A stretch of DNA of 64,000 nt from the NCBI GenBank assembly GCA_964016885.1, contig OZ024745.1:68820001-68884000 (forward strand). Direction: 5' to 3'. Every line of letters starts with the position of its first letter. Positions within the stretch are counted from its first letter, which is position 1. Source of the DNA: Eledone cirrhosa (Eukaryota). Below, piece by piece: positions 1 through 61,707 of this stretch. The translations under genes and the position numbers were made by a program. Under the pieces are notes generated by a model. That model was given only the letters and a program-made list of their open reading frames with translations. It had not been told where the DNA came from and did not search any database.

Positions 1-390
1 ACACACACACACACACACACATGTACGAATGTGTATGTGTATTTTTTATATAAACATACACATGAGTCGGCGAGTGAATCCGAACCCTAACGAACCTTCA
101 TCCCTACCGTAGCTTTGACGTCTATTATGCAATGAATTTGTTGAATCTAACGAGATATTTTGTTTTATTATTGAGAGCTCTAATGTCAAGGACCCCCTGT
201 TCCCTTATACAATCCATACTATTTATTATTCATGTAGAAGCATCAGAGAAGGTCAAAGAGTTAAAGATTAGATTCATTACTAACATATTCACGAAAATAT
301 AGGAAGATACTACTGATTCAATGAATTCTTTTTCATCTTAAATAAGAATCAGTCGTCCTATCAAAAGGATTGATGTATGATGTGGTTGAT

Positions 391-2289: not shown

Positions 2290-2660
2290 ATAATAATAAA
2301 TTTGAAGACTAAAATCCAAAGAGGGCTCGATAAGGATAAATATATATCAAATATATAAGAACCGTAGAGCAAATATTTATTAAAATAACAGATTAAAGTT
2401 TAAGCAAAGAATCGCTGCTTTCACCCTTAACGGGATCTTCTGAAACTAACAAAGTCAATCTGTAAACGCAGAACTGGATATTTGAAAAAACGTTGCAACC
2501 GGAGGAAGACAGGAAGACGATACTTTGGTTCGTCTTCCTCCGGTTGCAACGTTTTTTCAAATATCCAGTTCTGCGTTTACAGATTGACTTTGTTAGTTTC
2601 AGAAGATCCCGTTAAGGGTGAAAGCAGCGATTCTTTGCTTAAACTTTAATCTGTTATTTT

Positions 2661-24106: not shown

Positions 24107-25131
24107 AGACTAGCAGTAAAGCCCGGCGTTGCTCGGGGTCGCTCAGTAGCTGTGTTAAAGTTACAATGTTAAGTTTCTTTCTTGGCTTAAAAACTGTAGT
24201 GTCTACTGTGCAGACTTGCATGTGGTGTTTTTGATTAATATTCCCTCAACCAACAATATGCCTTATGAAGTTAAGAAAACATAACGATAACCCGAATGTT
24301 ATAACAAAAGAGGATGCTGGGGATAGAAACTGCACTGGTTATTTATTAACAAAGATCGAAAATGTAAACACTGCAACGCAGAGAAAAACATTAGCGTAAC
24401 CAAATTATCAGTTATGTCTGTCTGCACGCCTATATCACCTCTCTGCACGACTGTCTGTCTGCACGCCTATATCACCTCTCTGCACGACTGTCTGTCTGCA
24501 CGCCTATATCACCTCTCTGCACGACTGTCTGTCTGCACGCCTATATCACCTCTCTGCACGACTGTCTGTCTGCACGCCTATATCACCTCTCTGCACGACT
24601 ATCTGTCTGCACGCGTATATCACCTCTCTGCACGACTGTCTGTCTGCACGACTGTCTGTCTGCACGCCTAACGACGAAATATTTGCTTGTTTTACGTAGT
24701 CTTTAAATAGACTTGTTTTCAAGTAAAAATATTGTTTTAAAATGCTTTTAAATGGAAATGAAGCAAAACGGAAGCTTAGTGTTCGAACTGATGAATTTTG
24801 CAGGTCAATATTTTGCTGGCTCGACAACTGTTCGTGTATTGTGTTAATGTCATTTTAAACGCTGAGAAAGCCAGCGTAATTTTTTACGTAAGACGCTCAA
24901 TGTAAACAGAACAAAGGGAAATAACTGATAACTTACGCTCAAAAATCGATACATTATATTCGATTTCGTCACATAGGGTGGGTCAATTTGAAATATTTTT
25001 TTCCGATGTTTTCGCTAGGGCTCAATGTACAAGTATAGCAATTTCGGTGCAATTCCGTGAGAGATTCTAAGAGGAGATGTGTGCCAAAAATCGATAGACA
25101 GACAGACAACCACAGTTTTATATATATAGAT
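24107..25131. mobile_element. Non-autonomous Helitron/Helentron-like element with internal minisatellite
   Basis: Left end actagcagtaaagcccggcgttgctcggg (ACTAG + GC hairpin); right end (gaca)n...ttttatatatatagat, the layout of DINE-1/Lep1-type elements. Confidence 0.6.
24415..24670. repeat. 37-bp minisatellite, ~6.5 copies
   Basis: Unit tgtctgtctgcacgcctatatcacctctctgcacgac, period 37. Confidence 0.95.
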
Positions 25132-28842: not shown

Positions 28843-28872
<30 letters not shown>

Positions 28873-28876
<4 letters not shown>

Positions 28877-28943
28877 TTTGATTTACCTTAATTTTGGATA
28901 TATATATATATATATATATATTCATTTGATTTAACTTAATTTT

Positions 28944-28987
<44 letters not shown>

Positions 28988-29327
28988 GTTTGATTTACCT
29001 TAATTTTGGATATATATATATATATTCGTTTGATTTACCTTAATTTTGGAGATATATATATATATTCATTTGATTTACCTTAATTTTGGATATTTATATA
29101 TATATTCATTTGATTTACCTTAATTTTGGATATATATATATATATTCGTTTGATTTACCTTAATTTTGGAGATATATATATATATTCATTTGATTTACCT
29201 TAATTTTGGATATTTATATATATATTCATTTGATTTACCTTAATTTTGGAGATATATATATATATTCATTTGATTTACCTTAATTTTGGATATTTATATA
29301 TATATTCATTTGATTTACCTTAATTTT

Positions 29328-29366
<39 letters not shown>

Positions 29367-29777
29367 TTTGATTTACCTTAATTTTGGATATATATATATA
29401 TATATATATATTCATTTGATTTACCTTAATTTTGGATATATATATATATATACATTTGATTTACCTTAATTTTGGATATATATATATATATTCATTTGAT
29501 TTACCTTAATTTTGGATATATATTTATATATATATTCATTTGATTTACCTTAATTTTGGATATATATTTATATATATATTCATTTGATTTACCTTAATTT
29601 TGGATATATATTTATATATATATTCATTTGATTTACCTTAATTTTGGATATATATTTATATATATATTCATTTGATTTACCTTAATTTTGGATATATATT
29701 TATATATATATTCGTTTGATTTACCTTAATTTTGGATATATATATATATATATATTCATTTGATTTACCTTAATTTT

Positions 29778-29808
<31 letters not shown>
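28873..29808. repeat. Compound minisatellite: 26-bp core ttcatttgatttaccttaattttgga alternating with variable (TA)n, ~21 copies
   Basis: Direct reading; period varies ~38-64 bp with TA length. Confidence 0.97.
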
Positions 29809-34942: not shown

Positions 34943-37819
34943 TTCATGTGTATATATATATATTTATTTAGGGTTCTTATATATTTGATATATATTTATC
35001 CTTATCGAGCCCTCTTTGAATTTTAGTCTTCACATTTATTATTATTACTATATATATATATATGAGAGAGAGAGAATAATTTTTATGTGTGTACATCAAT
35101 AAAAAAGCAAATATGCCCAAGTTTTGTTTTATTAAGTATTTTCTTCTTTCCTTATTCTGCCTGCAGCCACATTTTTAAATCCATCGATATCTTTAGACCA
35201 TTCTGGTCTTATTTTGACTCACCTGGTAATTGAGAGCGTTTGTTATCGATCTTTTATACCAGGAAAGAACCATAAGGAATGATCTTGTGTTAATATCGAT
35301 GTCATTATCACCAGATTTGAAAATGCTTGACCGTTAAATCAAAGATTCTTTCATCAACAAGCAATAAATTAAATTACATTAACAAAATCTATTCGATGTA
35401 CAGAAATGACGAATACATTACCAATTTTCTACTTTTTTATATCAAGCAGATTGCAACATGCATTACTTCTAATGCTAAACTAGCAAGCAATATATATAGT
35501 TCTAATATACAGAAATAATAAATATACAATCTGCTGAACAAATTTCAGGCACGTAAATGTCATTTAGATATTTCTATGCATACATGAAAGTTGTTAACTT
35601 CATACCTAATTGCTAGATTAGATATAAAAATATGACATGTTCTCACTCTTTGTGTATATTTAACAAAGATCTAGTGAAACATAACGCAATACAAAAGAAA
35701 ACATTAGCTGATGATACAATAATCCTGCATAAAATTCTTCACTATTACAACTAGAACGTTAATCGTGGATGCTATCCATTTTATATAAATGAAATATGAC
35801 AACTTGTAATACACGCATAGGATCAAATTAATACACATCTTAATATCTAAGTCTCAATTTTGATTGCTGAAAGAAACCTGGAATTTTTCTTTTTATCTTA
35901 CTAAGCCATCGGCCCTTTTTATCGTACTTAGCCTCGCCAGCACCCGCGGTAATGCTGCGAGCGTGTTGGTTTGTCACAAAATATTCCGTTGACCTTTGTG
36001 GTGTGGTGTGCAGCCGATTGTCGCATCATTTGATGGTTACTTGGTGGTCGTTTTTGTTTGAATTTCCCTTTTTTCTTTCTCCAGAATAAGACCAGAAAGG
36101 AGACAGAAGAACAAATATTACAATATCATTTCTAATTAGTTAGCTTTTTCGGGTATGTTTTCTTTTGCTTTATGTGTTTTTGCCCATCTTTCCTGCACAA
36201 CACATACAAGCATGAATGCTATTCCATATATTCTTCGAACTTTCATAACATACGGTGTATTTTACAATATATTTAAATGCATTTATTACGAATTTGTGCA
36301 TGCCAGGTGGTAGCCAACAGTAACAGCACGAACCAGTGTATGAAAAATTGTCACCCCCACTCGTCTGTGCTCTCTCTCTGCTTGTTTTATATTCTTTAAC
36401 GTCATGAGAAACTGAATATTGTAGTGAGATTTCGTGTACGATCGAGATTTAGTTTACAAACTAAAGATGCATTAAAAAAATACATAGATATGGCTACACT
36501 CATAGGTCGTATTACACAAGAAGTTAGGAATTTTTTGTTTAATGTTTAGTTATTTGATCAGAACTTAGTGAACGATTAGTTTTTTCTAACTTTTCTTGAC
36601 TTTATATTTGGTTTTCAAAACTAAAATATGTATTATTTTGTTTTCCATCACTGCACACACTTTGTGAACTTTTCTATGATCTGTAGTGAAAAATACAAGA
36701 AGCTGTAATTTATTTTTGTTCTTTCTTTAGCTTCAGAAATAGGTGTTATATTATACTCAAGTCATATACACAAATACAGTATTATTTACTTATCTAACAT
36801 TGTTTTATATAGTGCGCTTGCTTATTCTGGTACAGCACAGTAATTTTACTTTGATATTTCTATACAGAAGAATTAAATATTATACTGCAAGGAAAAAGAA
36901 ATCAAATAAGGTTGAGACTTTTTCATTGATAGGGGCCTGTTAACAACCCCATAACTCTTGTACTGTAATAACGTGTATATCGATTGTAATTTACTGACAA
37001 AAGGCCTATCGATCCTTTACACAAGACTGATCTAACAAACGGTATATCCATTCAGAGCCAGTTGAAAAGTTCCCCATTATGTACCAGAAAATATATACAC
37101 GAAGTAGTAAAACCTGGTTTGTTTCGTTCTATATCACGAACAAGATAAATATATATCATTACCTTTAGATGTAAACATAAAGTAACATATACAACTGAAC
37201 TAACATTTTCAATCGAACAAATTGAATAGGTGCAGGTATGGCCATAGGTATATGCATAGATATTGTGGCAGGCGTGGCTATAGGCACCAACATAGAAATA
37301 AGCATAGGTATAGCTATAGTTATAGGCGTGGTTAGAGGTACAGACGTAGCTATATGGGCAGATATGGCAATGGTTACAGGCATAGCTATAGTTGTAGGTG
37401 TGTTTTTATTCACAGACATAAGCATAGGCGCAGGCATTGGTTTGTAGTTAAAGAGTTAATTGCAGAAACATATGATTTCAGTGCCGTCCCATTGTGTTAC
37501 AACATGGAAAGTGACATACATCTACAAAAGCCTCAAACTGACCATGCGGAAAATGTCAGCAAGTATGTGTGTGTATATATAGATATAGTATTGGTGAAAA
37601 GACAAATGAGGACCTGATATCACAATAGAGCTTGGAGCAGCCTTAATAAACTCGGTATGAGTGTGTATATGTGGTAGTTGCCACAAAAATATGAATACTG
37701 TTTATAAAAATATCAGTGGTGATATTTGTTTATGTCTACAATAAATAATACATTCTGCAGCGTTGTGGCTCGACGAACACCAATGGAATATATATATTTA
37801 AGTTATTTCGGGTTCAAGC

Positions 37820-37868
37820 GCTTCCTGATGATTTCTCACGAATGAAACAGTTCTAGAGCTGTAGAAGC
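37820..37868 (+). ncRNA. Type I hammerhead ribozyme, intact core
   Basis: gcttc-CUGAUGA(37825-31)-u-ttc(tcac)gaa-u-GAAA(37844-47)-cagttc-ta-gagct-GUA(37861-63)|gaagc; stem I 5 bp, stem III 7 bp near-palindromic; (TA)n ~12 nt downstream. Confidence 0.8.
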
Positions 37869-37877
37869 TTTTCTATA

Positions 37878-37920
<43 letters not shown>

Positions 37921-38045
37921 CAGACGAAAGCTCAAATCGTTCGTTTGTTTTATCTCGGACTGCTTCAGCCCTGCATCTGAAAAGAGGATATAGCCCTGAA
38001 ATATCATGCCATAATACACTGGGTTAAATATTACTTTACTTTGTT

Positions 38046-38094
<49 letters not shown>

Positions 38095-38958: not shown

Positions 38959-39147
38959 CGGTACTAGCTTGGATAGTATACATAAAATAGTGTACGAGGG
39001 GGGGGGGGGGAGAAATAGAAGAAACTTTGAAGTTACTGGCAATTTTTCTGCGGATAATCTTACACTTTGCTCATGTGTATTGAGTGCTTATTTAGTTAAA
39101 GTTTCAAAGGTTTGTGTGTGTGAATATATATATATATATATATATAT

Positions 39148-41928
39148 CAGATAGATTATATCCTTTCAGAAGACGTGCCAGAGTGTCGGTTGTAAACACT
39201 AAATCCCTCCCCCGCGAAGAATGCACCTCCCAACATAGCCTCATAGTTAGTGACCTCATAGTCAGGACGAGACGTACTCGACAACAGAGGAGGACTACCC
39301 TGAGAAGAAGAGTATGGAAGTTAAAGGACCCCACAGCCAGTAACAAATTTAAAAGCATACTACTTGATGCTTTTGACAGTAAGGAAGAGCAATTAGAGAC
39401 GTACAGTATAGAGGAACAGTGGGAATTCCTGAAAGTTAACCTGCTGAAGGCGACAAATGAAATCTGTGGCTGGAGCAGACCTGTAAGCAGGAGGAGGGTA
39501 ACATGGTGGGGGAACAGTAAGGTGGAGGAGTCAATCAAGGCCAAAAAGCAAGCTTGGAAAGTAAGGTGGGATGGGGGAAGTAGAGAACACTATCAAGTGG
39601 CCAGGAGGGAAGCTAGGAGACAAGTGTACCTTGGAAGAAGGGCAGCAAAGGAAATAAAGTTCAAGCATGTTCTACAACGTGAGGACCAAAAACGTGAGGT
39701 GTTCAAGATTGCCAGGCAATGTGTCAAGGAAAACCGTGATATTGTCGGGGACGAGTGTGTCCGTAATGATGATGGTATATTTGCCATCACTGATACTGAT
39801 AAGAAGGTAACTTGGAAGAGGCTACTAAATGAGGAGATAAGTGGGAAAAAGATAGTCTGCTCCAAATCGATCCAATAGAGGGACCAGCAGTGCAAGTTGA
39901 AGGTAGTATAATAAGTAAGGTAATCAAAGATATGAAGACAGGCTAAGCAGCTGGGCCTTTGGAGATAGTTGCTGAAATTCTGAAAGCATCTGGATTGGTG
40001 GGACACACCATGGTCTCCCGGATAGTAAACCAAGTCATACAGAATGGGGTCATACCAAATGACTGGTGTAGCAGCAGCATCATTAACTGTGTAAAGGAGA
40101 TGCCCTAGATAGGAGAAACTATAGAAGCATTAAATTAATTGATCAGGTCATGAAGGTCACAGAAAAAGTTATCGCGCAACTAATCAGAGAGCGAATCGAT
40201 CTAGATGAAATGCAGTTCGGGTTTGTGTCAGGTAAAAGTACCACAGACGCTCTTTTCCTTGTACAACAACTACAGGAGAAGTACCTAGCTAAAAGTAAAC
40301 CCCTGTACTTAGCTTTTGTTGACTTGGAGAAAGCCTTTGACAGAGTCCCCTGCTCCATTATCTGGTGGGTTCTTAGAAAACTAGGTGTTGATGAATGGCT
40401 CGTGAGAGCTATACAAGCCATGTATAAAGAAACAGTCAGCAAGGTTAGAATTAACAACGAATATAGTGAAGAATTTAGCGTAAAACTCGGTGCTCATCAG
40501 GGCTCTGTCCTGAGCCCCCTCCTATTTATTATTGCCCTTCAGGCTATAACAGAGGAGTTCAAGACCGGCTGCCCATGGGAACTTCTATACGCAGATGATC
40601 TAACGCTCATAGCTGAATCAATGGCTGAACTAGAGGAGGAATTCCAAACTTGGAAGCATGGCCTAGAATCAAAAGATCTTAAAATTAACTTGTCTGAGAC
40701 TAAAGTTCTAGTATGTAGGGAGGAAAATAGGGCACTGGTCCCCTCTGGGAAATGGCTAAGCTCAGTGTGTAGGAAAGGAGTAGGCAGAAACTCCATCTTA
40801 TGTCCCAAATGCAAAGTATGGGTGCATAAAAGATGTAGTGGGATCACAGGTAAACTAAGAACATAGATTTTATATGTGGCCGGTGCTCAGGTGCAATAAG
40901 TAGTAGCAAGTGCCCACAGGATACTATCTCCTTCCATTGCCCAGATGGTTCTATAGAAATAGTGGACACCTTCCATTACCTGGGTGACAAAATCAGCAGT
41001 GATGGAGTATGCTCTGAAAGTACAGTAGCTAGAGTCAGAACGGGATGGAAAAAGTTCAGAGAGCTTATACCACTATTGGCCGCTAAAGGTTTCTCCCTAA
41101 AAATGAAAGGCAGACTGTATGATGCCTGCATACGAACAGCAATGTTACATGGCAGTGAGACATTGGCATTGTGTGCAGAGGATTTGCGCAGACTGGAGAG
41201 GAACGAAGCTTGCATGCTCCATTGGATGTGTAATAGTAATATACGTGAACGGTAAAGCATAAATGAACTGAGTGAGAAATTAGGAATAAGAGGCATCAGA
41301 TGTTGTTTACTTGAGAGAAGACTACATTGGTATAGTCACGTGATGTGCATGAAAGACAACAGCTGTATAAAAAAGTGAAGTGCGATCAAAATAGATGGAA
41401 GCTACGGAGTAGGCAGCCCCAGAAAAACCTGGGACGATTTGATAAATTCCGACCTTACACACTTACACCTCTCCAAGACAATGTCACTGGACCGAGATCT
41501 TTGGCACTACGCAGTAATACAGAAGACCCGCCTTGCCCAAGTACAAAGTGAAACTTACAGCAGTAGGCACCTCCTAACCAAAAATACACCCCCATCCCAC
41601 TACCCCTACCCTCAACCCCATCTACACCACCCTTTCTCTGTAAAGTTATGTCGGTGCCACAACATCCAGTCCTAAATAAATGAGGTCATGTAGGTGTCAC
41701 GGCAAAAAACACACAGTCCACGCTGTAATGTGGCCGTGTAGGTAACACGGTAAAAACCTCCCAGTCCACACTGTAAACGTAGTTGGTGTTAGGAAGGGCA
41801 TCCAGCCGTAGAAAACCTGCCAGACAGTCCTATACAAGCAAGACAACGAATCTTGCCTCACGTGGGACAATTCCCATCTAAACCCATGCTAGCGTGGAAG
41901 ATAGACATTAAACGATGATGATGATGAT
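39148..41928 (+). mobile_element. 5'-truncated, frameshifted RTE-clade LINE (end of AP endonuclease, RT, PHD-like finger, 3'UTR, (GAT)n tail)
   Basis: EEC..QH.L.V.D endonuclease end; RT motifs QFGF, FVDLEKAFD, HQGSVLSP, LLYADD; CRKGVGRNSILCPKCKVWVHKRCSG; stops and frameshifts between ORFs 39114, 40150, 40962; flanked by (TA)n. Confidence 0.95.
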
Positions 41929-55174: not shown

Positions 55175-56850
55175 TGATAATAATAATAATAATAATAATG
55201 AAATTATGTGTACAGTGCTCAGGTGCACTACAACTCATCAAAGGTGCATGTATAGTACATAGAATAATGTACAAATGTCAGGAAAATAAACAGTGTATGA
55301 GTCATGATATAATAACAATAACGAAATATTGTGCACAGTGCCCAGGTGCACCACAACTCATCAAAAAAGTGCATGTACAGTACATAGGGCAATGCACAAA
55401 CATCAGTAAAATGAACAGTGCACGAGTCATGATACACACATGTGTGCATGTGTATGGAAGGGATACATCAGGTGTAGTTTTGGCGTATTTTGGGAAGCAT
55501 GAGTGTCTTAAAGGATGCAGTGTCTCGGCAGCTAACAATTGACGCAGGCAGTTTGTTCCATGCTTCAGCAACTCTGAGCGTGAAAAAATGTCTGCGAAAG
55601 TCATGGGAGCTGTGCTGTTTTCTTATCTTGTAGGCATGTCCACGTGTGTTAGACACATGGAGATCAAAGAGGCGCTCAGGGTTGCAGTTGGCGAGATGGT
55701 TAAAAACTTTGTGGGTATTCACCAAGTCCATTGCCAGACGTCGGAGCTTCAATGAATCCATGTCCAGGGAAGCAAGGCGTTCAGAGTATGGTAGGTGTCT
55801 GATGGAGGGTATGCGCTTGGTTGCACGTCTCTGAACAGTTTCCAGGAGGTCAATGTTCCGAGCAAGATAGGGGTTCCAGACTGATGATGCGAATTCCAAG
55901 TGTGGTCTCACCATAGCTGTATACAGTTTTAAATAGATGGCTGGAGAGCGGCTAACAAAGGTCTTGCTGAGTGATGCCAAGACACCCTCGGCCTTCTTGA
56001 CAATCTTAGAGACATGCTTTGTCCAATGCAAATCGTTGCTGACAGTAATGCCCAGGTCACGTTCACAAGAGGACTTTTTGATGTCAGTGTTGTGGAGGGA
56101 GTATGTGGACGCTGGATTTTTCCTTCCAAAATGCATGGTGGTACACTTGTCCACAGCCAGCTTCAGTTGCCAGTCTGTGATCCATTGCTGCATTGTGTCC
56201 AGGTCTGATTGTAGGAAAGAGTTGTAAATTTCAGGATCAGTCCTTTTGATTTCAAGGTACAGCTTGATGTCATCTGCATATTTTAGTACCGTGGCATTCT
56301 GTAAGTTGGCATCTATGTCATTAATATATGCCACAAACAAAAGAGGACCAAGAACAGATCCCTGTGGTACACCAGATGACATCTCATATGGTGAAGAATG
56401 CTGTCCTAGAACCGTGACTACTTCCTTTCGGCTGAGAATGAAGGATTTCAGCCAGTCGAAAAGATCATCCCTCACACCCATTGCAGAGAGTTTTGCCATA
56501 AGTCTTTTGTGTGGCACAGAATTAAAAGCCTTAGCAAAGTCAAGGTAAACAACATCCACCCATGAGCCGCTGTCAGTGATCCGGGTGATGTCCTCAAGAA
56601 ACTTGATAAGCTGATCACAGCAGCTGGAGTTAGGGATAAATCCAAACTGTGAGGGCCGGATGAGGCTGTGAGAGCTCCAGAAGTTCCAAAGTGTTTCTCT
56701 GACACAGGATTCCATCAGTTTGGCCATACAGCTAGTAAGACTGACTGGACGATAGTTGACAGGTGACATGCGGTTGCCCTTTTTGAACAGGGGAATGACA
56801 CTGGCAGTTTTCCACTGCTCCGGAGTAGCACCATTGCTGAGACAGTATTG
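55175..56850 (-). mobile_element. 5'-truncated CR1/L2-group LINE with duplicated 3'UTR unit and (ATT)n tail
   Basis: RT ORF 56850-55468; UTR repeats 55199-55309 and 55322-55434; tail 55175-55198. Confidence 0.92.
55468..56850 (-). CDS. Non-LTR reverse transcriptase (partial ORF2; the ORF-track Met at 56901 lies in flanking DNA)
   Basis: Uninterrupted ~460 codons: WKTASVIPLFKKG, NYRPVSLTS, QFGF, YLDFAKAF, GVPQGSVLGP, YADD, ERDLG, VRPHLEF...WNP, VQRRATK. Confidence 0.9.
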   Translation of the reverse strand, partial: QYCLSNGATPEQWKTASVIPLFKKGNRMSPVNYRPVSLTSCMAKLMESCVRETLWNFWSSHSLIRPSQFGFIPNSSCCDQLIKFLEDITRITDSGSWVDVVYLDFAKAFNSVPHKRLMAKLSAMGVRDDLFDWLKSFILSRKEVVTVLGQHSSPYEMSSGVPQGSVLGPLLFVAYINDIDANLQNATVLKYADDIKLYLEIKRTDPEIYNSFLQSDLDTMQQWITDWQLKLAVDKCTTMHFGRKNPASTYSLHNTDIKKSSCERDLGITVSNDLHWTKHVSKIVKKAEGVLASLSKTFVSRSPAIYLKLYTAMVRPHLEFASSVWNPYLARNIDLLETVQRRATKRIPSIRHLPYSERLASLDMDSLKLRRLAMDLVNTHKVFNHLANCNPERLFDLHVSNTRGHAYKIRKQHSSHDFRRHFFTLRVAEAWNKLPASIVSCRDTASFKTLMLPKIRQNYT

Positions 56851-59800
56851 AAAGAAAAAAGAATGATGATGATGATAAGTGAAAATATTTATGGAAGCCA
56901 TCTCTTTATTTATGTGCTTTGACCCATAAAAACATCGGTATTATTATAGTAATTCATTGTTTTACTTTTATTCATTTAGAATCCATTGGGGCATCTGCTT
57001 GTTCATACATTATTTTGGATTGTAGTATTAATTTCAACACCTCGAAACTAGTATATGTGAAATAGTCAATTTCATAAACTTAACCGTAAAAAAAAAAAAA
57101 TTTCAAAAAAATATTACTTTTACACAAGTATAAATGGTAAGTATTTTTCTTTTATATGTGTATAAGAGACGTGTAATTGTGAAGAATATACTTCAATAAT
57201 AAACAACAACTGAATAAAATATTGTTTAAAAAATGCCTCATTTAGTACGGATGCTCTTGCTACTGTTACTAATGCCCAAAGCATCATGTTTCAATTTTCA
57301 TATACATATGTACATATATATATATATATGAATATAGAAAGATAAATATATTCTAGCTCATATGTGTCAGTAAAAGACCAAGAACAAGAAAATGAAAACA
57401 ACCCTCAGTAGACTCATATCAGATGACCCACTAACTAAATTGATATATTTCTATAATTGAGATCAATTGTACACTAGAGTTGAATAGATTTATAGAACGA
57501 TTCTTTTCTTTTTTTTTCTTGCAATTTTATCTACAATGTTTTTCAATTGATATATTCTAAGGATAGCAAATTGACAGAGTTTTAGGGAATCAGATTAAAT
57601 GCCTTGTGAAATATGTTCTGGAACGTAAGTTTCACTGAGGTTAGCTTTGCCTTTCATCCTTTTGAGGTCAATATAGAATCAATCCAAAGAGGCAAAATTG
57701 GAGGAGTGAAAGAACATTGAAGAAGCTATCTTGTGGTATATATTTCAGCTCTGTGCATTCTCAGTTCAAATCCTGTCACCTGTCTCATGGAAAACTATAA
57801 TGAATCTCTCATGACCTAGTGAAGATGGAGATGAGCTTAGGAAAGACCATAAGTCTTAACATCTTGTATCACATGAAACCACATTAGCAAGACATTCTTG
57901 GAAATTATAAAAAAAGCATTACATTAAACATTTACATCTTTACTTTAATATAGCAAATGTTCACAACAATGTCTCCACTATTAAAGATACTATAAATATT
58001 TGAACAAACCAATTAAAAAAATATTTAGTGCCAAATCCTTATCGCATGTTAAAGGTTAAGCAAATACTAAAGTATTTCAGCTGATTACACTTATTGTCAG
58101 CGCACACTAGCTGGCAGGTATGAAGGGATGTTCAAGTGCTGTCCACTCACTTCTCTTCATTCTAGGATTACCATTTCATGCTTAATTTGACACATATACA
58201 CACACACACTATTGTTATAATATTATATTTGTCAATGCTTGCGTAGACTAGACTGGTCTTTCGCAACACAGAGTTTCAGCATATGCTGCAAATATTTGGT
58301 CTTCTTTATTATGTTCAGCCTCTTAAGATAATTTTTTATCACTTTTTCCCTATATCATCCTTGGATTTCCTGTTTCACAAATTCCTTTTTCTTGGATTGC
58401 CAACTACTTCAGTACCAAGCTGTCATCTGCTATACTTATTGCATGTTCATACTATTTAGTCAGGGAGACAGTAGTATGACCCATGGTCTTTTTCAGGGCC
58501 TCTGAAACTGATCAGAGGAAGGTATGCTGAAACTTGATACGTAGTCTGAATGCTTCCAACAAAATAGACTCTGTTAAAAGCACCTAAAGACCAGGTGGGG
58601 ACATTAAACTAGGCAGCAAATTAAGTCTACTACTTGAGAGAGAAATGAAAGAAGTTTTATTATTAGACTAGAAAATCATAGTTGATCTAGTTATTCGTTT
58701 GATATTATAGAAATCTGTTATTTACGAAAACAAAGAAACAAAGAAACAGATGACATGTAATTACTTATGTTTAATGTTTTTTTAATACTCTCATTATAGT
58801 ATAGTTCTGTTCACTAAATCTTTCATTTACTGAATAATTTCAATTTGTAAGTGTAGAAGATTAAAAATAAACTCAAACATAGGCTCATTATGTCTTTCAA
58901 TTCTATGTTGATAAAATCAGGATAAAGCGTTTTATTGAAACAAAGTAATTTCTACATTTCTGCATTGTAATCTATACCTTCAACATAATTGTAATCTATA
59001 CCTTCAAAGGTGTATATCTGCAAAATGTCATTAAAAAAATATGCATTATTAAGAAAGTTATGAGGAAACAAATTCAGTGAAAGTGGGCTAAATGGAGATT
59101 ATGCCACCAAACCACCCACAAATACTTGAGGTAACAAGTTATAAATATTCAAGAAATACAAATCAACTACAAGCATAAAATTAATATTCTAACCTCTCTC
59201 GGTTTCAACAATAAGTGTTCCACTTGTTCGATCAATGGGACAACCTTCTTGTGAAATTAACATGTAAGTGGCTAAGTATTTCACAGGCACACATAACCGT
59301 TACATAATTTTCAGCACAAAACAGTGTGTAATAAGGCTGGTCCTTTGAATTTCAGGTACAGCTCATTTCTTACCAGCTGAGTAGACTGGAGCAACACGAC
59401 ACAATGCTCTGGTGGGAATCAAAACCACGACTTTACAAATGTGAGTTGATGACTCTAGTTCTATGAAATAAAACCATTCATTTTAAAGGTTTCCAATTTA
59501 AAATAAAAATCTTCCAACATCATTTTATATAAGAACTTATCATTAAGTTACTATCTTGGTAACGAAATAGTTAATAATTTTAGTAAATTCCTCAAAATTC
59601 TTCATTAATTAATTAAAATAATGTGTATTTTATTAGAAATGTGGCCATGAAAGAGTTAAACACTGTCACACACCTTTACAATCAAGAAAGAAATAACAGG
59701 AAATGACTGGTAATACAATAGACTGCAGTTTACATAATCAATTGGTTCCTCAATCCCAGACATTATTACAAAACATATATGCTCAAGACCCTTTATATAA

Positions 59801-61087
59801 ATGTTCTTATCTACATTATATTTTAAAGGGAACATAACAGCAGATTCTCTGGAGGTTGAGAAAACTCAGGAAAAGAACAATGTAGAGTTTTCTCCCTTAT
59901 ATTAAGTGATACAGTTTCATGTGGAACAGGATATTAAGAGTTTTGCAGCTTCTTAATTTTTTAAAAATATTCGTGCTGGTGACATGATAAAATGCACCCA
60001 CTACACACTGTAAAGTGGTTGGCATTACCCATAGAGATTAGGCCACAAATAGAACATCAGCAAGACTAGATTACTTGTCAAATATCTGATCATGACAATC
60101 TGTCGAACCCATGCAAGCATAAAAAGCAGATGTAAAAATGATGATGATGATGATTTTCCAATCATATATGTTCAAATTCATATGAGATTTGGGTTCATCC
60201 TAATAAATTATAGAAAAACAGTTTTCAAGAACTATAAAATGGTGAGAAATATGATATCAATATGCCCTTTTCTTCTTAATATAGGTAACAAACCAGAATA
60301 GACACAGCTGTTGTAAAATATAGTGGGGGAAGAAGGGCAATAGAAGCAATAGAGCAATAAAGACAGAAACCCCAGCCACAGCTGCAACTAACAAGCCTGT
60401 AATCAATGTTGATTTCTTTTTACCTTCTCCTCCACTGACATTTCAAACATATTCAACTCACATTTTGGCGAAGAAATCAAAATACATTTTAGCTTTATTT
60501 TTATCAGAGCAAACGTGGGAACAAAAAATGTGATGAAAAATTGAACTTGAAAAATATATTTAACTGTTTTGTTACCATGTTTTAAATAAAAAAAAAGTAT
60601 TGCCTATAGTTTTCAAATCATTTTGAAAATAATAAAAAATAATCTAGAGAGATTTAATAATATTTTAAAGCTGATGTTTGGAGCATAATTTAACAAACAT
60701 TCTTTCTTCCAGAAACTTATGATGGTAGGTTTTTTTTGTATATAAATACTTTAAAATATATGGTTTTGTATTATAGAACTAGAGTGTTTAAGGTAGTTGG
60801 TATTAAAAGGGTTAATTTGTAACAAAACAGTGCATTTGAAAAAAACTGTTATAAAGCATACAACTAATTGTCATTAATCTAAAATTTCATTCTGGTTGAT
60901 GATGGATTACTGGAGTAATTAGAGCATCGAACAAAATGTTTGTAGTATTGATTTAGAGTTCTTTATGTTTTAAGTTCAAATCTTGCTGGGGTCAAGTCTG
61001 ACTATCACCCATCATCGTTATAATTTTTGTATTAATTTTGTTTCATTCTGGCATGTGTTGGATGAATTTTATGAGACTGTGTTTTGA

Positions 61088-61707
61088 AAGTGGTCGTGTA
61101 GGAGTCATGAAAAAAAGCACCCAGCCCACATTGTAATGTGGTCGTGTAGGGGTCATGAAAAGAAAAACACCCAGCCCACACTGTAAAGTGGTCATGTAGG
61201 AGTCACAACAAAAAGCACCCAGTCTACACTATAAAGTGGTCATGTAGGAGTCACAACAAAAAAGCACCCAGTCTACACTATAAAGTGGTCATGTAGGAGT
61301 CACAACAAAAAAGCACCCAGTCTACACTATAAAGTGGTCATGTAGGAGTCACGACAAAAAAGCACCCAGTCTACACTATAAAGTGGTCATGTAGGAGTCA
61401 CAACAAAAAAGCACCCAGTCTACACTATAAAGTGGTCATGTAGGAGTCACAACAAAAAGCACCCAGTCTACACTATACAGTGGTCATGTAGGAGTCACAA
61501 CAAAAAGCACCCAGTCTACACTATAAAGTGGTCATGTAGGAGTCACAACAAAAAGCACCCAGTCTACACTATAAAGTGGTCATGTAGGAGTCACAACAAA
61601 AAAGCACCCAGTCTACACTATAAAGTGGTCATGTAGGAGTCACAACAAAAAGCACCCAGTCTACACTATACAGTGGTCATGTAGGAGTCATGGCAAAAAG
61701 CACCCAG
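61088..61707 (+). repeat. 48-49-bp minisatellite, ~13 copies, derived from an RTE 3'UTR segment
   Basis: Unit aaagtggtcatgtaggagtcacaacaaaaagcacccagtctacactat; similar to 41680-41776 and 45660-45710; RTE 3' end with (GAT)n follows to 61849. Confidence 0.92.

What the first reader, a model, noticed from the sequence alone, without database searches (positions are those of the whole stretch)
37820..37868. Textbook hammerhead ribozyme just upstream of a TA tract
All core nucleotides are present (CUGAUGA, GAAA, GUA), with stem I gcttc/gaagc, stem II ttc/gaa and a 7-bp near-palindromic stem III. Predicted cleavage is after 37863. This is the best single candidate for an active ribozyme in the window.
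Basis: seen in the sequence. Interest (0 to 1): 0.75.

Follow-up and report, generated by a model that had tools for sequence, protein, structure and literature searches.

The report
Hammerhead stub of Hydra-clade Penelope retrotransposon
This is a real hammerhead-ribozyme sequence, but it is one likely dead stub among about 22,000 such motifs left in this genome by a known kind of jumping gene, and the way the stubs end suggests that the element's RNA likely starts at the ribozyme's first base and is likely copied into DNA without having been cut.

Summary
The type I hammerhead at 37820-37868 is real (0 of 200 shuffles as strong) but not textbook. U·U replaces G10.1-C11.1, and stem III is 6 bp, not 7. 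Its extra pairs are private to this copy (1 match in the genome). The motif belongs to the pseudo-LTR of a Penelope-like retrotransposon with Hydra-clade protein marks and TA-repeat targeting: 21,935 core matches, and intact 758-759-residue RT/GIY-YIG frames directly behind it. The window copy is an 82-base, promoterless remnant of a head-to-head double insertion and is predicted to misfold in the proposed test construct. Family-wide, 38 of 69 truncated copies stop within 3 bases of the first base of stem I, 30-31 bases behind a TATA box, often with an extra G. Only 1 of 69 stops near the cut site. The template was therefore likely capped, sense and uncut. This scan reported the same reading before on other DNA of this and other genomes. 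No RNA data were available; cleavage is untested.

The parts
37789..37799 (.). short TA-rich target remnant, left flank
   Evidence: sequence; family copies sit in (TA)n
37800..37817 (-). inverted outer end ('tail') of the pseudo-LTR, left arm; one substitution against sister copy L015 and one against the common form
37816..37819 (-). relic of the opposite-strand hammerhead's stem I; the rest of the left arm (about 110 bases) is missing, joined at a shared AA (inferred deletion or template jump)
   Evidence: side-by-side with intact two-armed copy L015; the same joint is seen in L004, L010, L011, L014, L015
37820..37868 (+). type I hammerhead motif of the pseudo-LTR (stem I 5 bp, stem II 3 bp with U·U closing, stem III 6 bp + CUAG loop, GUA site, predicted cut after 37863)
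37857..37858 (+). copy-specific AG that lengthens stem III (family: mostly TC, a sub-lineage AC)
   Evidence: 1 match genome-wide; 95 of 100 TC; AC seen in several loci
37869..37881 (+). element sequence up to the inner fixed 3' end (inferred inner start of reverse transcription)
   Evidence: inner arms of 24 of 25 two-armed copies end in this stretch; L125 is cut off by the analysed segment
37881..37918 (.). (TA)19 target tract, right flank
37920..38048 (+). separate, older repeat: 3' end of another Penelope-type family with a minimal hammerhead variant at 37973-38010; a neighbour, not part of this insertion
   Evidence: 44 matches at 83-100% identity from 40 of 938 candidates scored; 12 loci read

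Best explanation
The motif is the hammerhead of the pseudo-LTR of a Penelope-like retrotransposon with Hydra-clade marks, and this copy is a likely inert, partly deleted stub of a head-to-head insertion in a TA tract. Shown: full-length elements read pLTR(hammerhead) - 758/759-residue RT + GIY-YIG frame - long TG/TA-rich 3' region - pLTR(hammerhead). The 85 bases behind the hammerhead are both the element's leader and the 'tail' of insertions. Inferred: RNA polymerase II starts at the first base (A) of stem I, 30-31 bases behind TATAAATA. The element's protein nicks (TA)n and starts reverse transcription at one of two sites, about 55-70 or about 130 bases behind the core. When it starts in the RNA's front repeat it copies through the uncut hammerhead and runs off the capped 5' end after at most about 140 bases. 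Two such arms from one template (both ends of the break, or one cDNA folding back) are joined head to head. The window copy is such a product that lost most of its left arm. In the parent element the ribozyme likely cuts slowly and only with help (element protein and/or pairing of two RNAs through the CUAG palindrome in loop 3). A cut in the front repeat would remove a capped 45-base piece, so it likely acts as an off-switch or a late circle-making step, not as the maker of the template for these stubs.
For: Copy number: 1,369 exact 32-mers; 21,935 core-pattern matches, control 0. Hammerhead directly before a same-strand RT frame of 696-811 residues in at least 9 of 20 fetched 10-kb stretches (output for L097-L098 partly cut). 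Protein P0001 has RWR, DKT, YRDD, a CxCx5C linker, KTYIG, CxxC before E and CxH after N, the marks Craig et al. 2021 give for Hydra (PMC8557442 section 11). Their File S2 lists U·U at 10.1-11.1 in 14 of 25 Hydra families (my count) and the same ACAG/CUGU-A stem III in 3. Structure kept: one stem I pair is A-U in 27 and C-G in 15 of 46 promoter-bearing copies, 4 discordant; loop 2 has 17 sequences among 100 listed matches while U·U stays in 98. Start site: TATAAATA lies 30-31 bases before the A in 33 of 46 copies from both subfamilies, though the 34 bases before stem I are only 65% alike. Of 90 copies picked by the tail alone, 21 keep the upstream pLTR, 51 are two-armed, and 38 of the 69 truncated ones reach furthest to -8..-3 (p 2e-26 against uniform). 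Non-C base before the A: G 76, T 13, A 11 of 100 listed; 39 of 40 fetched G loci lack the upstream pLTR. Uncut template: 1 of 69 ends at +37..41; direct TA joints at the cut site 10 vs 7 at a control site 8 bases upstream. One template: loop 2 is the same in both arms in 22 of 25 two-armed copies, chance 0.28. Frangieh et al. 2024 (PMC11167929, parts 1-2 of 4) found two internal RT starts, a protein-assisted hammerhead and unprocessed RNA as main substrate for a Poseidon element in vitro.
Against: No RNA evidence and no cleavage assay. The extra G is confounded. In the young subfamily a C follows stem I, so fold-back or deletion between the two stem I strands also gives G (seen in L135, L241, L242). 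In the window's subfamily G is 36 of 100 listed non-C bases against A 54 (mostly overlapping palindromes) and T 10. In most of the 32 G loci read, the inverted arm or flank could supply the G; only L276 is clean. The hammerhead is barely more conserved between subfamilies (92%) than the tail behind it (88%), so conservation may reflect the whole transcribed repeat; covariation rests on one event. 29 of 69 truncated copies end at -2 or further inside. Some sampled loci are duplicates of one another (e.g. L142/L183, L192/L194), and all 90 come from the first 43 Mb of contig C1. Copies that begin at the cut site could be rare because such RNA is unstable or circular rather than because cutting is rare. 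No tree against named Hydra sequences was built.
Confidence: 0.8

Rival explanations
1. This copy is an active, autonomous monomeric ribozyme that cuts host transcripts passing through it.
For: Complete core; private changes lengthen stem III to 6 bp (hairpin -3.6 vs -1.4 kcal/mol in the family); in the bare 49-mer stems I and III have mean pair probabilities 0.93 and 0.80; a short TA run lies about 30 bases upstream and could by chance act as a TATA box.
Against: Stem II pair probability 0.06 because UUC prefers the core's GAA; hammerhead share under 0.01% with flanks; U·U in place of G10.1-C11.1, which Cervera and de la Pena 2014 call highly conserved (PMC4209133 part 2); its own promoter is gone; the longer stem is a one-off; metazoan PLE hammerheads were weak in vitro in that paper.
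Confidence: 0.07
2. The stubs end at stem I because the finished cDNA folds back on its own stem I complement or because the structure releases the enzyme, not because the RNA starts there; the head-to-head joints come from self-priming, possibly on antisense RNA as proposed for rotifer Penelope elements.
For: Arkhipova et al. 2013 read junction palindromes as self-priming on an antisense template (PMC3846280, passages); 3 of 90 loci (L135, L192, L194) are stem-I fold-backs; arms share one template; the extra G can be templated in many loci.
Against: A structural stall should stop the enzyme at the 3' strand of stem I (+45), before the motif is copied, not at -6; stem-I fold-back predicts a second arm starting near +39, seen in only 3 of 90; the end cluster coincides with a conserved TATA spacing in two subfamilies; single-armed copies also start at G-A (L215, L246; L187 at A).
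Confidence: 0.12
3. The short units are an independent non-coding element (retrozyme, SINE or MITE-like hairpin) that multiplies on its own account using the Penelope enzyme.
For: Two-armed stubs are the most common form (51 of 90); a roughly 1-kb ORF-less unit with two hammerheads exists (L061).
Against: The stub sequence is the front end of the autonomous element itself; joints differ from copy to copy, so they are independent events rather than copies of a master stub; stubs lack the TATA box; a two-armed RNA folds into one long duplex (-102 kcal/mol for L011) that would block both ribozymes.
Confidence: 0.05

Closest known systems
Hydra clade of C-terminal EN+ Penelope-like elements (Craig et al. 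2021, PMC8557442; passages, section 11 and supplement part 2 of 59 read)
   Same: Single RT + C-terminal GIY-YIG frame; RWx, DKT, CxCx5C linker, CxxC/CxH around E and N; (TA)n targeting; type I hammerhead with U·U at 10.1-11.1 (14 of 25 listed families) and a 4-bp stem III; inverted 5'-truncated copy and a tail at one end.
   Different: Unit is about 4.5-6 kb because of a long TG/TA-rich 3' region (published: mostly under 3 kb); loop 3 is 8 nt with a CUAG palindrome (listed Hydra rows: 1-3 nt); tail about 70 bases rather than 30-40; hammerhead sequence differs from the listed Hydra-1_oBim; about 22,000 motifs.
Poseidon element of Anolis carolinensis, PAc (Frangieh et al. 2024, PMC11167929; parts 1-2 of 4 read)
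   Same: Two internal starts of reverse transcription that define the tail; AT-rich target; hammerhead in the front repeat; unprocessed RNA as template; no ends at the cut site.
   Different: Different clade; there the frame starts inside the hammerhead, here the first ATG is about 180 bases behind the core; transcription start not mapped in the parts read.
Minimal PLE hammerheads (Cervera and de la Pena 2014, PMC4209133; parts 1-2 of 4 read)
   Same: Type I, in pLTRs, mostly orphan copies, pairs on opposite strands, palindromic loop 3, low predicted activity.
   Different: Short stem II (3 bp, not 7-8), real 4-bp stem III, U·U instead of the conserved G10.1-C11.1.
Penelope of Drosophila virilis (Schostak et al. 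2008, PMC2377424; passages read)
   Same: Transcription starts in the pLTR upstream of the frame.
   Different: Internal TATA-less promoter and a 75-bp intron before the hammerhead; here an upstream TATA box and a predicted start at the hammerhead's first base with no room for an intron before it.
Non-LTR retrozymes (Li et al. bioRxiv 10.64898/2026.07.22.740005, part 1 of 5 read)
   Same: Type I hammerhead, non-coding, linked to PLEs.
   Different: Those are head-to-tail tandem units; this is a single truncated pLTR in head-to-head form.

Membership tests
Type I hammerhead ribozyme | Core CUGAnGA and GAAA, NUH site, three stems, ends in stem I | tested here: met
Type I hammerhead ribozyme (canonical) | G10.1-C11.1 pair closing stem II | tested here: not met
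   U·U here and in 98 of 100 listed family matches; also in 14 of 25 published Hydra families
Type I hammerhead ribozyme (canonical) | Loop 1-loop 2 tertiary contact | tested here: inconclusive
   loop 2 takes 17 sequences in 100 matches and, if RNA starts at stem I, no loop 1 bulge can form; no conserved contact seen, none modelled
Type I hammerhead ribozyme | Match to an Rfam hammerhead model | tested here: not met
Type I hammerhead ribozyme | Site-specific self-cleavage | not testable with these tools
   no assay; genomic ends show no excess at the cut site
EN+ Penelope-like element | Single frame with RT and GIY-YIG endonuclease | tested here: met
   P0001, 759 residues, YRDD and KTYIG motifs; 1000 relatives at E<=1e-20, one listed with PF00078 and one with PF01541. 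Pfam gave no hit above cut-off for P0001 itself and only E 0.017 for GIY-YIG on a fragment
EN+ Penelope-like element | pLTRs with hammerhead at both ends of the frame | tested here: met
   L094, L097, L099, L105
EN+ Penelope-like element | Inverted 5'-truncated copy and one-sided tail | tested here: met
   51 of 90 two-armed
Hydra clade | RWK-type motif, DKT, CxCx5C linker, CxxC and CxH around E and N | tested here: met
   RWR, SDKT, CNCLNKEAC, CDLC, CMH in P0001; RWK, DKT, CxCx5C and CRH in most of 7 aligned relatives
Hydra clade | Absence of the CCHH motif of other clades | tested here: inconclusive
   not seen by eye; no reference alignment was available
Hydra clade | Insertion into (TA)n | tested here: met
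Hydra clade | Length generally under 3 kb | tested here: not met
   hammerhead-to-hammerhead 4.5-6.0 kb; the frame itself is of Hydra size
Hydra clade | Placement in the RT phylogeny | not tested
Non-LTR retrozyme | Head-to-tail tandem non-coding units each with a hammerhead | tested here: not met
   one copy in the window; TRF shows only TA tracts there

The most novel reading that the evidence does not exclude
In this Penelope-like family the capped RNA begins at the first base of its own hammerhead. The thousands of head-to-head stubs are run-off ('strong-stop'-like) cDNAs made from one uncut sense RNA, and the ribozyme, detuned by a U·U pair kept across much of the Hydra clade, is a protein- or dimer-gated self-decapping switch rather than the maker of the template. 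This would explain the inverted pLTRs of PLEs without an antisense template.
Probability: 0.55. Interest if true: 0.55.

Novelty: new member of a known kind. Interest (0 to 1): 0.33.

Why it matters
As a ribozyme the locus is ordinary debris of a known clade. The family is useful because its many short insertions record where the RNA began and whether it was cut. They point to a capped, sense, uncut template and to a start at the hammerhead's first base. That bears on two open points in Penelope biology: how head-to-head pLTRs form (antisense self-priming was proposed, PMC3846280) and what the hammerhead is for (called unclear in PMC8557442). I did not find this start-site reading in print in three searches or in the passages read, but Lunse et al. 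2017 was not held and most subscription papers are not searched. The scan itself has reported the reading several times.

Tried and rejected
Rfam: no hammerhead at gathering score or at E<=10. Free folding of 37810-37880 gives no hammerhead fold, z 0.69. Pfam names nothing for P0001. Lunse et al. 2017 on PLE hammerhead variants: not held, so whether U·U or U4A variants were assayed there is unknown to me. Of the Craig supplement I read 1 of 59 parts plus one search; consensus sequences and figures S2/S7 were not seen and may bear on the clade call. Neptune (my first guess from the cysteine linker): rejected, since DKT, RWR and CxCx5C fit Hydra. A 3' splice site at the CAG before the core (as in D. 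virilis): rejected as the cause of the end cluster, because ends include the AG and often a further G, whereas a splice product would begin after AG. Frame on the strand opposite the hammerhead (suggested by L041, L049): these are inversion joints; full elements have both on one strand. The 37973-38010 motif as a partner in the same element: it belongs to a different, older family. A first automatic end-mapping mis-scored several loci through TA-rich upstream matches and was redone with short references. The G test in the older subfamily was meant to separate cap from fold-back and stayed largely ambiguous. No P0001-like frame lies in the window (tblastn empty).

Full report
Observation. The window at 37820-37868 reads GCTTC / CTGATGA / T-TTC-TCAC-GAA-T / GAAA / stem III / GTA / GAAGC. 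A descriptor scan of both strands found it as the only compact hit with an exact core; the other exact-core hit, 27848-27778, has a 36-base AT-rich arm and was not pursued. None of 200 shuffles gave a hit as strong. The predicted cut is after 37863. The pair that closes stem II is U·U. Stem III is 6 bp with a CUAG loop, not 7 bp. Rfam has no matching hammerhead model, and free folding does not give the hammerhead form.

It is a repeat. The window is G000:C5:68820001-68884000 in a 3.0-Gb genome. A 32-mer from the motif occurs 1,369 times. A pattern with free positions at N7, 10.1, loop 2 and 11.1 occurs 21,935 times, reversed control 0. Among the 100 listed matches U·U is kept in 98 and loop 2 takes 17 sequences (my count). 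In a second pattern (20,039 matches) the two loop-3 positions are TC in 95 of 100 listed and the GUA site is kept in 98. The window's AG at 37857-58 occurs once in the genome. The family therefore has a 4-bp stem III with an 8-nt loop holding a CUAG palindrome. Two such stems are predicted to pair better as a duplex (-12.8 kcal/mol) than as hairpins (-1.4 each).

The parent element. Two of 30 loci had a GIY-YIG-like frame next to the repeat (L041, L049). A search with one of them returned 55,632 candidates, 150 scored, many in long open frames. I fetched 20 stretches of 10 kb around long frames. In at least 9 of them the hammerhead lies directly before a same-strand RT frame of 696-811 residues, and in L094, L097, L099 and L105 a second same-strand hammerhead follows 4.5-5.8 kb later (output for L097-L098 partly cut). 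The protein P0001 (L093, 759 residues) has RWR, SDKT, YRDD, CNCLNKEAC, KTYIG, CDLC before the conserved E and CMH after the conserved N. Relatives at 39-53% identity share these motifs. Craig et al. 2021 define the Hydra clade by RWK, DKT, a CxCX5C linker, CxxC/CxH around E and N, and (TA)n insertion (PMC8557442 section 11). Their File S2 shows a T after CTGANGA and a T before GAA in 14 of 25 Hydra families (my count) and ACAG/CTGT-A stem III in three. The U·U pair is thus a clade habit, not damage. No tree was built. Pfam does not name P0001.

Selection on structure. Between the young subfamily and the window's older one, a stem I pair changes on both sides: A-U in 27 and C-G in 15 of 46 promoter-bearing copies, 4 discordant. 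Identity between one copy of each is 78% far upstream, 65% just upstream, 92% in the hammerhead and 88% in the 84 bases behind it. The hammerhead is kept, but not much more than its downstream neighbour, and the covariation is one event.

Anatomy of the window copy. It is TA-rich flank, 18 bases of inverted tail (37800-17), AAGC, hammerhead, 13 bases, then (TA)19. Sister copy L015 has the same two outer ends and the same central joint, but carries a whole inverted hammerhead arm between them. The window copy is best read as such a two-armed insertion that lost about 110 bases of the left arm at a shared AA (inference). It lacks the upstream pLTR. The hammerhead fold has a computed share of 2% in the bare motif and under 0.01% in 37790-37885 or 37740-37920, mainly because stem II's UUC pairs with the core's GAA and stem I is taken by flanks. 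Family copies score as low (0.1-1.4% as 51-mers), so low monomer stability is general. These are secondary-structure energies without Mg2+ or tertiary contacts. That losing G10.1-C11.1 slows hammerheads is recalled, not from a call; Cervera and de la Pena 2014 call that pair highly conserved and report low activity of metazoan PLE hammerheads (PMC4209133).

Where the copies end. To avoid bias I picked copies by the tail alone (12,082 matches) and mapped the first 90 of the 100 listed, all on contig C1. Twenty-one keep the upstream pLTR and 51 are two-armed. With C3 as 0, stem I starts at -6 and the cut lies between +38 and +39. Of 69 truncated copies, 38 reach furthest to -8..-3 (expected 6/88 of them; p 2e-26), 29 end at -2 or further inside, 2 at -12 and -23, and 1 at +37..41. 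Three second arms begin at +37..39 (L135, L192, L194), but their first arms reach -6, so they are fold-backs through stem I. Some loci are duplicates and not independent. Genome-wide, direct joints of a TA tract to the cut site number 10, against 7 at a site 8 bases upstream with the same TA overlap (27 matches in all). Cut RNA has left no visible excess of insertions.

Why they end at -6. TATAAATA lies 30-31 bases before the A at -6 in 33 of 46 promoter-bearing copies of both subfamilies; 7 lack the exact octamer and 6 have other spacings. In the young subfamily 2,284 copies have a base other than the genomic C before that A: G 76, T 13, A 11 of 100 listed. Of 40 regions fetched from the G rows, 39 lack the upstream pLTR, and one (L230) continues after the G into upstream pLTR sequence, as a template jump would. 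Untemplated G at full-length 5' ends is the accepted sign of a copied cap in LINE-1 and SVA (PMC4859970, passages). The G is confounded, however. In the young subfamily stem I is followed by C, so fold-back also yields G. In the older subfamily (796 matches) G is 36, A 54 and T 10 of 100 listed. The A rows read are mostly overlapping palindromes, and 6 of 8 T rows read are simple C-to-T changes with the promoter intact. All 32 G loci read are truncated there, but in most the inverted arm or flank offers a G at the joint, and only L276 is clean. The start-site reading therefore rests mainly on the end cluster plus the TATA spacing, with the G as partial support.

One template and two starts. 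In 22 of 25 two-armed copies both arms have the same loop 2, against 0.28 by chance; all 17 neighbouring opposite-strand pairs agree (my count). One arm ends at the outer tail (about +130) and the other at about +55 to +70, as in the window copy. Frangieh et al. [quoted passage not shown]

Mechanism. Shown: family, element layout, protein motifs, target, end positions, arm identity. Inferred: start at the A of stem I; capped, uncut sense template; run-off and head-to-head joining; slow, assisted cleavage that would remove a capped 45-base piece or make circles late; inertness of this copy. Full-length copies keep some 350 bases upstream of the front hammerhead, which a linear RNA starting at -6 cannot template, so a jump, a tandem read-through or a circle is still needed for them; my data do not decide which. 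Arkhipova et al. 2013 proposed antisense self-priming for head-to-head palindromes and did not exclude a sense template (PMC3846280); the data here favour sense run-off.

Known and new. The motif, its clade and the insertion shape are known. The start-site reading was not found in print, but one relevant paper was not held. I wrote the reading down before looking at the scan's notes. The notes then showed the same reading for other places in this genome and in other genomes; these are unchecked and are not independent support. No RNA holder was listed, which says nothing either way. Verdict: real motif, ordinary locus, new member of a known kind; interest 0.33, up to 0.55 if the start-site and switch reading is shown by experiment.

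Noticed in passing
window 2397-2447 (-) and 2595-2645 (+), inside a fold-back insertion 2286-2664 between TA tracts: A second hammerhead family with the core changed to CAGAAGA (U4 to A) and again U·U closing stem II: 18,652 matches, A4 in 100 of 100 listed. One of 8 loci (L326) has a Hydra-type endonuclease frame beside it. A fixed core change in a successful family may mean a dead or variant ribozyme; it also creates a TTTCAG splice-acceptor-like word.
   Followed up: partly
window 37920-38048 (+), motif 37973-38010: 3' end of an older Penelope-type family with a minimal hammerhead (2-nt palindromic stem III); position 8 is A in 11 of the 12 loci read, with C or U at position 3, recalling the U3-A8 variant of Cervera and de la Pena 2014. 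It sits in the same TA tract as the finding.
   Followed up: partly
L230 (G000:C1:94685734-94686254): Extra G at the predicted start followed by upstream pLTR sequence from about 16 bases behind a repeated TATA box: looks like a run-off cDNA that jumped back into the repeat.
   Followed up: no
L236, L243, L251, L252, L253: Perfect head-to-head joints in which both arms carry the extra G with a single A/T between them; too tight for a hairpin loop, which favours joining of two cDNA ends.
   Followed up: partly
L102 (G000:C1:83689100-83699099): Three same-strand pLTR units about 1.1 kb apart without a long frame between them: a retrozyme-like tandem made from this family's repeat.
   Followed up: no
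L064-L092 downstream of the frame: The element's 3' region is a 1-3 kb TG/TA low-complexity tract into which other elements insert.
   Followed up: no
window 39096-40863 (+) and 55471-56940 (-): Frames that look like non-LTR (LINE) endonuclease/RT fragments (judged by eye, not searched).
   Followed up: no
window 24415-24650, 28854-29799, 61087-61707: Young minisatellites of period 37, 40-44 and 48.
   Followed up: no
L096, L100, L101, L103, L112: Several further hammerhead-like cores of unrelated sequence near these elements, showing more PLE or retrozyme families nested in the same tracts.
   Followed up: no
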